This document shows, in pieces, positions 60,901-63,187 of a stretch of DNA of 64,000 bases. The number at the start of each line of letters is the position of its first letter. Within the stretch, counting starts at the first letter, position 1. The notes below the pieces were generated by a model that searched no databases, was not told where the DNA came from, and saw only the letters and a list, made by a program, of their open reading frames with translations. The position numbers and the translations under genes were made by a program. This DNA comes from the human T2T-CHM13v2.0 reference genome, Homo sapiens. The stretch is from the NCBI RefSeq assembly GCF_009914755.1, contig NC_060947.1; one strand, 5' to 3'.

Positions 60901-61697
60901 GGGGGCAGCCTTGCCTTGTTCCCGCTCCAGTCCCCTCAAGTCCGAAGCCCCTACCCACTCTCACGCCAGGCAGGGGTGGGGGCCGCCGGGGTCATTTACC
61001 CGGGCCCCTTCTCTGCCTTGATGACAAAGTCGAGCCTTGCTCATCAGCCAGGCAGGCTCCCCTCTGCCCACTGTGGAGACACAGAGGCCTGTCACCTGAA
61101 GAGCTGGTCCCGGCCTCCAGCTTCCAGGGTAGCCGGGAAGCTGTAGCCCCCAGTGGGCAGCGGTGGAGAGAGCTCAAGGAAGGAGGGAGCACCGGGAGGA
61201 GACGGCTGCAGCCTGCCAGGAGCGGGGAGAAAGGGAGAGAAGGGGAGGCGGAGGGCTGAGGGGGCCCGGGGGACGTCTTCCCAGGGCTGGGAGGGGCCGG
61301 CCGGGAAGCCTGGGCTGCACTAGGAGCCGGCGACCCTGGGGCGAGGGGCGGCCCGGAGCCCTGCGGGAGGAGCTGGCGGCCGCCCCAGGTAGCAACCATC
61401 CTGCCTCCCGCTGGAGCGGCGTCTCCTCCCCGGGAGGAGGGCAGGGAGGAGGTGGGCGGAGTGTGACGAGGAGGGCGGGAGGGAGGGATGCGGGAGGGGG
61501 AGGGGGAGGGGGGCCGGCCGGCCGTGGGGGTGGGGCGATAGTGACATCACCCCGGAGTCGGTTTTTAAGCGGCGGCCGGCCGGGGACGGGGAAGAGAGGG
61601 ATAGTCGGAGCGAGGTGGCGAGTCGCTGAGCCCGCCGCGGCCCCGAGAGCGGCTGCAGCCGCCGCCGCCGGGAAGGAGAGGGCGAGGCGCGCCCGAG

Positions 61698-61700
61698 CCG

Positions 61701-61734
<34 letters not shown>

Positions 61735-61741
61735 CGCCACC
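61698..61741 (+). repeat. (GCC)n trinucleotide repeat with ACC interruptions in the SLC6A8 5'UTR (second tract about 61936-61959)
   Basis: Directly visible. Confidence 0.9.
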
Positions 61742-62006
61742 GGAGTCGCGGGCCAGCCGGGCAGCCTCCGCGGGCCCCGGCCGGGGCGGGGGGCGCGGGC
61801 CACAGGCCCCTGCTCCGGCCGCCGCTTGCAGACCGCGGGCGCCGATGTCGCCCGCGCCCCGCTAGGCTGAGCCTCGGGTCGGGCGAGGAGCCGCCGCAGC
61901 CGCCGCCGCCCGAGCCGCGGGCAGGAGCCTCGGGAGCCGCCGCCGCCGCCGCCGCCGCCCGGCCGGGCCCCGCCGCCGCCCGCGCGCCCCCGGGCCCCCG
62001 ACACAC

Positions 62007-62054
62007 ATGAGATTCTTCAGGCTCACTTTCAAGTGCTTCGTGGACTGCTTCTGA
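62007..62054 (+). CDS. Upstream ORF in the SLC6A8 5'UTR, 15 aa MRFFRLTFKCFVDCF
   Basis: ATG AGA TTC TTC AGG CTC ACT TTC AAG TGC TTC GTG GAC TGC TTC TGA; translation is inferred, not shown. Confidence 0.65.
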   Translation: MRFFRLTFKCFVDCF

Positions 62055-62182
62055 CTGCGCCGCCCGCGCCCCGCACCCCGCCGCCCGCCCGCCGCCCCGT
62101 CCCCCGGCCCGGCCGCCCCCCGGCCCCCGGCCGGCCCGCGCCCTCGGGGCCCTCCCCGGTGCCGCCGGTGCCCCCCGCCTGA

Positions 62183-63187
<1,005 letters not shown>

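What the first reader, a model, noticed from the sequence alone, without database searches (positions are those of the whole stretch)
62007..62054. Phe/Cys-rich 15-aa uORF standing out in the SLC6A8 leader: candidate metabolite-sensing attenuator peptide
Seen: the leader is almost pure G/C, except for one island of ordinary composition of about 50 nt. That island coincides closely with ATG...TGA encoding MRFFRLTFKCFVDCF, and all five Phe codons are TTC and both Cys codons TGC. The uORF context is weak (cacATGa), whereas the main start 185 nt after its stop is strong (gccATGG). Established: peptide-dependent uORFs give metabolite feedback through ribosome stalling (AMD1 MAGDIS with polyamines, the fungal arginine attenuator peptide), and cellular creatine uptake is down-regulated by creatine. 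Inference: this uORF has resisted GC drift because its peptide is selected, and it may couple creatine or energy status to transporter translation. It may already appear in conserved-peptide uORF screens; the feedback role is my hypothesis.
Basis: partly seen in the sequence, partly recalled or inferred. Interest (0 to 1): 0.8.

Follow-up and report, generated by a model that had tools for sequence, protein, structure and literature searches.

The report
Known conserved uORF in SLC6A8 leader
The 15-codon upstream reading frame in the creatine-transporter mRNA leader is real and looks selected for its peptide, but it is already published as a vertebrate-conserved repressive uORF, and the idea that it senses creatine is also in print and still untested.

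Summary
ATG 62007 to TGA 62054 encodes MRFFRLTFKCFVDCF. It is a 46% GC island in an 88% GC leader. GC by codon position is 3/16, 6/16 and 13/16 (p = 0.001), the pattern expected for a peptide under selection in GC-rich DNA. There is no RNA structure or Rfam match.

It is not new. Mackowiak 2015 lists "a 15 aa uORF in SLC6A8 conserved across vertebrates". Martinez 2022 lists a Slc6a8 5'-UTR smORF in a mouse adipocyte Ribo-seq study. Takahashi 2020 found that frameshifting the peptide raises reporter expression in HEK293T. They also propose creatine feedback, or bypass under ATP shortage.

None of the 10 full-text searches found a test of creatine dependence.

- Three chr16 pseudogene copies carry AGG for the uORF ATG and ATA for the other leader ATG. 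The other 45 nt are identical, which is not significant (P about 0.11).
- No other place in the genome encodes the peptide's C-terminal half.

Verdict: already known. Sequence-dependent cis repression is shown in print. Stalling and metabolite sensing are inferred only.

The parts
62007..62054 (+). 15-codon conserved-peptide uORF (MRFFRLTFKCFVDCF, stop TGA), 45.8% GC
   Evidence: Sequence and translation. GC by codon position is 3/16, 6/16, 13/16. In print as the SLC6A8 CPuORF.
62007..62009 (+). uORF start codon in weak context (c at -3, a at +4). Replaced by AGG in all 3 chr16 paralog copies.
   Evidence: context. (paralogs).
62052..62054 (+). uORF stop codon TGA followed by C. The same frame then stays open for 47 more codons, to a TGA at 62196-62198.
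   Evidence: That UGA-C is a poor termination context is recalled knowledge, not tested here.
61845..61865 (+). Second ATG uORF, 6 codons (MSPAPR, stop TAG), context gcgccgATGt. ATG is replaced by ATA in all 3 chr16 copies.
61591..62239 (+). Annotated 5'UTR of NM_005629.4: 649 nt, 84.4% GC, only two ATGs, GCC-type repeats on both sides of the uORF
   Evidence: Hub annotation.. Folds less stably than shuffles (z = +4.3).
62055..62239 (+). 185-nt C-rich spacer between the uORF stop and the main ATG (GC 0.86-0.98, GC skew down to -0.5)
62240..62501 (+). First coding exon of SLC6A8. Main ATG is in strong context (G at -3, G at +4).
   Evidence: Hub annotation..

Best explanation
This is the published conserved-peptide uORF (CPuORF) of the creatine-transporter mRNA.

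How it probably works: a minority of scanning 40S subunits start at its weak AUG and translate 15 codons. The nascent peptide then lowers the flow of ribosomes to the main AUG 185 nt downstream.

What is shown in print: peptide-level conservation, listing of the smORF in a mouse Ribo-seq study, and repression that depends on the amino-acid sequence (relieved by a frameshift).

What is inferred: the peptide most likely acts inside the exit tunnel to slow elongation or termination at or near the UGA. The stalled 80S would then block leaky-scanning subunits and limit reinitiation. Whether any metabolite modulates this is unknown.
For: Anatomy: the uORF lies inside the annotated 5'UTR, has a weak start against a strong main start, and is out of frame with the main ORF.

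Coding signature in the single sequence: GC3 is 13/16 against GC1+2 of 9/32, Fisher p = 0.0007. Third positions have followed the 88% GC surroundings while first and second positions have not.

No RNA-level alternative found:
- Local folds are no more stable than shuffles (z = +0.87 and +1.55; 158 of 200 and 194 of 200 shuffles fold at least as well).
- The whole leader has z = +4.3.
- 0 Rfam matches at E up to 1.

Print:
- '15 aa uORF in SLC6A8 conserved across vertebrates' (PMC4568590, one passage).
- A Ribo-seq-based smORF study in mouse adipocytes lists the Slc6a8 5'-UTR smORF, with a peptide 'identical in several species' (bioRxiv 10.1101/2022.03.12.484025, two passages).
- Frameshifts significantly raised reporter expression for 8 of 17 CPuORFs tested, and SLC6A8 is named among the five novel regulatory ones (PMC7530721, sections 6 and 7).
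Against: Stalling has not been shown for this uORF. I found no toeprint, disome or structural data.

I therefore do not know the size of the effect, the extent of the UTR in the construct, or the exact frameshifted stretch. The assay was one cell line with an SV40 promoter.

A frameshift also changes codons and a few nucleotides, so an RNA-level effect is unlikely but not strictly excluded.

Vertebrate conservation could not be re-tested here because no vertebrate collection is on hand. The only comparative data available were the three chr16 copies. They show 0 of 45 differences in the uORF body, which is not significant (P about 0.11).

The mouse preprint calls the peptide 14 aa in one legend, against 15 here. 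I could not resolve this.
Confidence: 0.85

Rival explanations
1. The nascent peptide stalls the ribosome more strongly when creatine (or phosphocreatine, or a related guanidino compound) is abundant. This would give substrate feedback on transporter synthesis, as arginine does with the fungal attenuator peptide and polyamines do with the AMD1 uORF.
For: Sequence-dependent repression is the prerequisite and is shown.

The review PMC4634222 (passages) states three relevant points. Substrate inhibition by creatine is the one undisputed strong regulator of the transporter. Regulation is mainly post-transcriptional: Vmax rose 7-fold in creatine-deficient mouse hearts while the transcript rose 1.4-fold. 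The feedback needs new protein synthesis.

The uORF is unique to SLC6A8 and its duplicates. The C-terminal 10 codons plus stop, at up to 2 mismatches, match 4 places in the genome and 0 in the reversed-pattern control, and all 4 are SLC6A8-type loci.
Against: No experiment with varied creatine was found in 10 full-text searches.

The same review attributes the feedback that depends on protein synthesis to Txnip, which was induced by saturating creatine. That is a different mechanism.

Repression was seen in ordinary HEK293T culture with no added effector, so it may be constitutive.
Confidence: 0.2
2. Stress-relieved brake. The uORF represses under normal conditions. It is bypassed by leaky scanning when initiation is less efficient, for example under energy shortage or eIF2-alpha phosphorylation, and transporter synthesis then rises.
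For: The uORF start context is weak and the main start is strong, which suits leaky-scanning control. Takahashi 2020 proposes this as its second option.
Against: With a weak start most subunits already bypass the uORF, so further bypass would gain little unless a stall amplifies the block. This model does not explain why the peptide sequence is conserved. There are no data under stress.
Confidence: 0.15
3. The conserved product is a free 15-residue micropeptide with a function of its own in trans. It is aromatic and basic, with two Cys. Cis repression would be a side effect.
For: Peptide-level conservation and listing in a Ribo-seq smORF study fit a functional micropeptide as well as an arrest peptide. 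Takahashi 2020 notes dual roles for the MKKS and MIEF1 CPuORF products.
Against: A cis effect that depends on the sequence is already shown. Fifteen residues with no signal peptide or known motif is very short for a stable product. I saw no mass-spectrometry evidence in any paper I read.
Confidence: 0.08
4. The island is kept as a nucleic-acid element (a protein-binding site in DNA or RNA, or a structure) and the reading frame is incidental.
For: The island is a sharply bounded unique sequence between GCC-type repeats. It is identical over 45 nt in the chr16 copies even though their ATG is lost.
Against: The GC pattern has a three-base period in register with the ATG frame (p about 0.001). There is no structure above shuffles and no Rfam family. 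The frameshift result in print changes few nucleotides but most of the residues. Identity over 45 nt in young duplicates is expected by chance about 1 time in 9.
Confidence: 0.03

Closest known systems
SLC6A8 CPuORF as published (Mackowiak et al. 2015, PMC4568590; Takahashi et al. 2020, PMC7530721; Martinez et al. 2022 preprint)
   Same: It is the same element: a 15-aa uORF in the SLC6A8 5'UTR, conserved across vertebrates, repressing in a sequence-dependent way, with creatine feedback suggested.
   Different: Nothing of substance. Added here: the codon-position GC signature, the absence of RNA structure, the state of the chr16 copies, and the uniqueness of the peptide in the genome.
AMD1 (S-adenosylmethionine decarboxylase) uORF, peptide MAGDIS, polyamine-responsive (recalled; polyamine-promoted stalling is mentioned in general terms in PMC7530721)
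   Same: A short uORF in a mammalian leader whose peptide sequence, not merely its presence, represses the main ORF. The gene product controls the level of a small metabolite.
   Different: AMD1 has a 6-codon uORF close to the cap, with a demonstrated stall at termination and demonstrated polyamine dependence. Here there are 15 codons, 416 nt from the annotated cap, with no shown stall and no shown effector. There is no sequence likeness.
Fungal arginine attenuator peptide (arg-2 / CPA1 uORF) (recalled; arginine is named as an effector in PMC7530721)
   Same: A conserved uORF peptide in a weak start context, so that leaky scanning feeds the main ORF and a stalled ribosome blocks it. It gives end-product feedback.
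   Different: The attenuator peptide has about 24 residues, with a stall at the stop codon shown by toeprinting and by structures. Neither exists for SLC6A8. They are not related in sequence.
PTP4A1 CPuORF and the other human CPuORFs positive in the same assay (FAM13B, KAT6A, LRRC8B, TMEM184C, MKKS, MIEF1)
   Same: The same operational class: conserved peptide, with repression relieved by a frameshift in HEK293T.
   Different: Different peptides and genes. None has a known effector either, except as proposed.

Membership tests
Conserved-peptide uORF (CPuORF) | ATG-initiated ORF that lies wholly within the 5'UTR of an annotated mRNA, upstream of the main ORF | tested here: met
   62007-62054 lies inside exon 1 (61591-62501) of NM_005629.4 and 185 nt 5' of the main ATG at 62240 (hub annotation).
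Conserved-peptide uORF (CPuORF) | Amino-acid sequence conserved across distant taxa, with a signature of purifying selection on the peptide | not testable with these tools
   No vertebrate genomes are on hand. In print: conserved across vertebrates, identical in several species, and selected by the ESUCA pipeline. Indirect support here: GC by codon position is 3/16, 6/16, 13/16, p = 0.0013. The paralog comparison is uninformative (0 of 45 differences, P about 0.11).
Conserved-peptide uORF (CPuORF) | The uORF is translated (ribosome occupancy) | not testable with these tools
   In print for mouse adipocytes only: a Ribo-seq-based smORF study lists it. I saw no human footprint data. A search for SLC6A8 + Ribo-seq + '5 UTR' found 0 papers.
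Regulatory arrest-peptide uORF (sequence-dependent repressor) | Altering the peptide by a frameshift while keeping the uORF relieves repression of the main ORF | not testable with these tools
   In print: met in HEK293T reporter assays. The figure and supplement were not seen.
Regulatory arrest-peptide uORF (sequence-dependent repressor) | Demonstrated ribosome stall on the uORF (toeprint, disome, peptidyl-tRNA accumulation) | not tested
   None was found in print. SLC6A8 + 'ribosome stalling' gave 7 papers with 6 listed, and none addresses a stall on this uORF: I read passages of three and judged the other three from the listing alone. It cannot be computed.
Metabolite-sensing attenuator peptide (AAP / AMD1 type) | Strength of repression or stalling depends on the concentration of a specific small molecule | not tested
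   No experiment with varied creatine was found. It is only proposed, in the Discussion of PMC7530721.

The most novel reading that the evidence does not exclude
The SLC6A8 uORF peptide is a creatine (or phosphocreatine) sensor in the ribosome exit tunnel. When the cell is replete it stalls the ribosome at the UGA-C stop and shuts off transporter synthesis. That would make it the first vertebrate solute carrier known to be controlled by its own substrate through an arrest peptide. It would also open two things: a class of regulatory variants for unexplained creatine-transporter deficiency, and a drug target for raising transporter levels.
Probability: 0.2. Interest if true: 0.7.

Novelty: already known. 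Interest (0 to 1): 0.15.

Why it matters
SLC6A8 loss causes X-linked creatine-transporter deficiency, and low transporter activity limits creatine loading of heart and brain. A peptide-dependent brake in the leader is a plausible handle for raising expression and a place to look for regulatory variants. Both the element and the feedback idea are already published, however. What remains valuable is the experiment nobody seems to have reported: whether creatine modulates the repression.

Tried and rejected
RNA-structure explanation. The whole leader and the local segments fold no better than shuffles, and Rfam gave 0 matches. Rejected.

Paralogous uORFs elsewhere in the genome, for example in other SLC6 genes. 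A degenerate pattern for the last 10 codons plus stop, at up to 2 mismatches, found only chrX and the three chr16 duplicates, with 0 control matches. Older paralogs diverged beyond 2 mismatches would be missed.

Using the chr16 copies as a conservation test. 0 of 45 differences in the uORF body against a non-CpG rate of 0.051 outside it gives P about 0.11. This is too young a comparison to be informative.

Loss of both leader ATGs in the chr16 copies. The probability that both are hit is about 0.05 at the observed 7.8% difference rate, and the test is post hoc. Noted but not interpreted.

Literature.
- The exact peptide string is in 0 papers.
- One search was too broad: 1,217 papers, of which only the known preprint among the 25 listed mentions SLC6A8.
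- PMC10897314 and PMC13657109 contain the search words but say nothing on this uORF.
- Ndika et al. [quoted passage not shown] Three reviews cite it. Two describe it for splice variants only, and in the third I saw only the reference entry. I do not know whether it treats the leader uORF.

Supplementary files and earlier scan findings were closed. The supplements of PMC7530721 (Table S2, Fig. S6) would give the taxonomic range and the construct design for SLC6A8.

Full report
**What is there**

The sequence at 62007-62054 reads ATG AGA TTC TTC AGG CTC ACT TTC AAG TGC TTC GTG GAC TGC TTC TGA. This encodes MRFFRLTFKCFVDCF.

The uORF lies inside the annotated first exon of SLC6A8 (61591-62501). 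It starts 416 nt from the annotated 5' end and ends 185 nt before the main ATG at 62240. It is out of frame with the main ORF.

The uORF start context is acacacATGa, with no purine at -3 and no G at +4. The main start is ggggccATGg. The stop is TGA followed by C.

**Is it more than chance?**

- The leader is 649 nt at 84.4% GC. Without the uORF it is 87.5%, and the uORF itself is 45.8%.
- The lowest-GC 48-nt windows in the leader start at 62003-62007. The lowest window that does not overlap the island has 68.8% GC and sits at the cap end.
- 17 of the leader's 45 T residues are in these 48 nt.
- The flanks are GCC-type low-complexity arrays, so the island is the one stretch of complex sequence in the distal leader.
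- In 100,000 shuffles of the 57-nt island, 722 gave a closed ATG ORF of 15 or more codons.
- The most telling internal signal is GC content by codon position: 3/16, 6/16 and 13/16 (chi-square p = 0.0013). For GC3 against GC1+2, Fisher p = 0.0007.

Third positions have gone the way of the surrounding DNA while first and second positions have not. That is what selection on an encoded peptide produces, and what a protein-binding site or a hairpin would not.

**RNA-level alternatives**

- The leader as a whole folds less stably than all 20 dinucleotide shuffles (z = +4.3). My inference is that this is because the uORF-to-ATG spacer is C-rich and G-poor (GC skew down to -0.5).
- The uORF with and without short flanks folds no better than shuffles. 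z is +0.87 and +1.55, and 158 of 200 and 194 of 200 shuffles fold at least as well.
- Rfam gave no match at E up to 1.

**Related sequence within the genome**

The window's genome holds three further copies on contig C16, at 94-95% identity over the 141-base query. These correspond to the chr16 creatine-transporter duplicates. That name is recalled from knowledge and from the review, which mentions SLC6A10P.

Alignment and counting show the following:

- All three copies have a 4-nt insertion in coding exon 1 that shifts the frame into a stop, so they are pseudogene-like.
- The leader differs at 48 of 616 aligned sites.
- The uORF body and stop differ at 0 of 45 sites. At the non-CpG rate outside the uORF (0.051) this has P of about 0.11, so it is not evidence of constraint.
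- The uORF ATG is AGG, and the only other leader ATG (61845) is ATA, in all three copies. The probability that both are hit is about 0.05, and the test is post hoc.

A degenerate pattern for the last ten codons plus stop, at up to 2 mismatches, matches only these four places, with none in the reversed-pattern control. No other gene in this genome carries a close copy of the peptide.

**What is in print**

Mackowiak et al. [quoted passage not shown]

Martinez et al. 2022 (bioRxiv 10.1101/2022.03.12.484025; two passages seen) list a smORF in the Slc6a8 5'UTR in their Ribo-seq-based annotation of mouse adipocytes. They say the microprotein is identical in several species. One legend gives 14 amino acids, which I cannot reconcile with 15.

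Takahashi et al. 2020 (PMC7530721; abstract, sections 6 and 7 and further passages seen) recovered it with their ESUCA pipeline. They chose it among 17 human CPuORFs with well-conserved C-termini and tested wild-type against frameshifted versions upstream of luciferase in HEK293T. Frameshifts raised expression for eight of the 17, and SLC6A8 is named as one of five novel regulatory CPuORFs.

[quoted passage not shown] As an alternative, they suggest it could be bypassed by leaky scanning under ATP-deficient conditions.

The size of the effect, the taxonomic range and the construct details are therefore unknown to me.

**What is not in print, as far as I could search**

Ten full-text searches found no test of creatine dependence, no toeprint or disome evidence for a stall, and no disease variant in the uORF. 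The library lacks most subscription journals. Ndika et al. 2014 on post-transcriptional regulation of this gene is not held. Two reviews describe it only for splice variants, and a third only lists it in its references.

**Mechanism**

Shown in print: the peptide is conserved, the smORF is listed in a mouse Ribo-seq study, and repression depends on the amino-acid sequence.

Inferred:
- The start is weak, so most subunits scan past it. Sequence-dependent repression is then hard to explain unless the few ribosomes that translate the uORF dwell on it and obstruct the others. That is the arrest-peptide model.
- The conserved C-terminus (the authors' criterion for choosing it) and the UGA-C stop (a poor termination context, recalled) point to a pause at or near termination.

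Whether the pause is tuned by a ligand is open. The review PMC4634222 supports a strong post-transcriptional feedback by creatine that needs new protein synthesis. It assigns that feedback to Txnip, so the physiology does not require the uORF.

**Verdict**

The element and the hypothesis are both already known.
- the codon-position signature,
- the negative structure tests,
- the state of the three duplicates,
- the practical point that, by my recollection, creatine-phosphate energy mixes in standard translation extracts would mask a creatine effect.

Noticed in passing
L002, L003, L004 (G000 C16 copies), aligned to window 61845-61847 and 62007-62009: All three chr16 duplicates of the SLC6A8 first exon have lost both leader ATGs (ATG to ATA at the mini-uORF, ATG to AGG at the conserved uORF). 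The remaining 45 nt of the uORF are identical. The copies also carry a 4-nt insertion in coding exon 1 that shifts the frame into a stop. Joint loss of both ATGs has P of about 0.05, and the test is post hoc.
   Followed up: partly
window 61845-61865: A second ATG uORF of 6 codons (MSPAPR, stop TAG) lies 162 nt upstream of the conserved one. Its context is gcgccgATGt. The finding does not mention it, and I did not see it discussed in the passages I read.
   Followed up: partly
window 61697-61742 and 61936-61980: The 5'UTR of this X-linked intellectual-disability gene holds GCC triplet arrays of 15.3 and 16.0 copies, with ACC interruptions in the first. The chr16 copies are 27 nt and 6 nt shorter at these two places, so the tracts have changed length.
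   Followed up: no
window 62008-62010 and 61810-62010: The uORF ATG overlaps a TGA in the +1 frame (ATGA). That TGA closes a 66-codon frame with no ATG, whose first near-cognate start is a CTG at 61810. This is a stop-start overlap geometry, and there is no evidence that the upstream frame is translated.
   Followed up: no
window 62055-62198: After the uORF's TGA-C stop the same frame stays open for 47 codons (Pro/Arg-rich) to a TGA at 62196-62198, 41 nt before the main ATG. Readthrough would therefore carry ribosomes almost to the main start.
   Followed up: no
window 61591-62260: The whole leader folds less stably than every one of 20 dinucleotide shuffles (-362.6 against a mean of -391.2 kcal/mol, z = +4.3). 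The G-poor, C-rich spacer downstream of the uORF may keep the extremely GC-rich leader scannable.
   Followed up: no
window 61470-61512: A G-rich GGGAGG / GGAG repeat block lies just upstream of the annotated SLC6A8 5' end, between the SLC6A8 start and the PNCK start on the other strand. It is a possible shared promoter element or G-quadruplex former.
   Followed up: no
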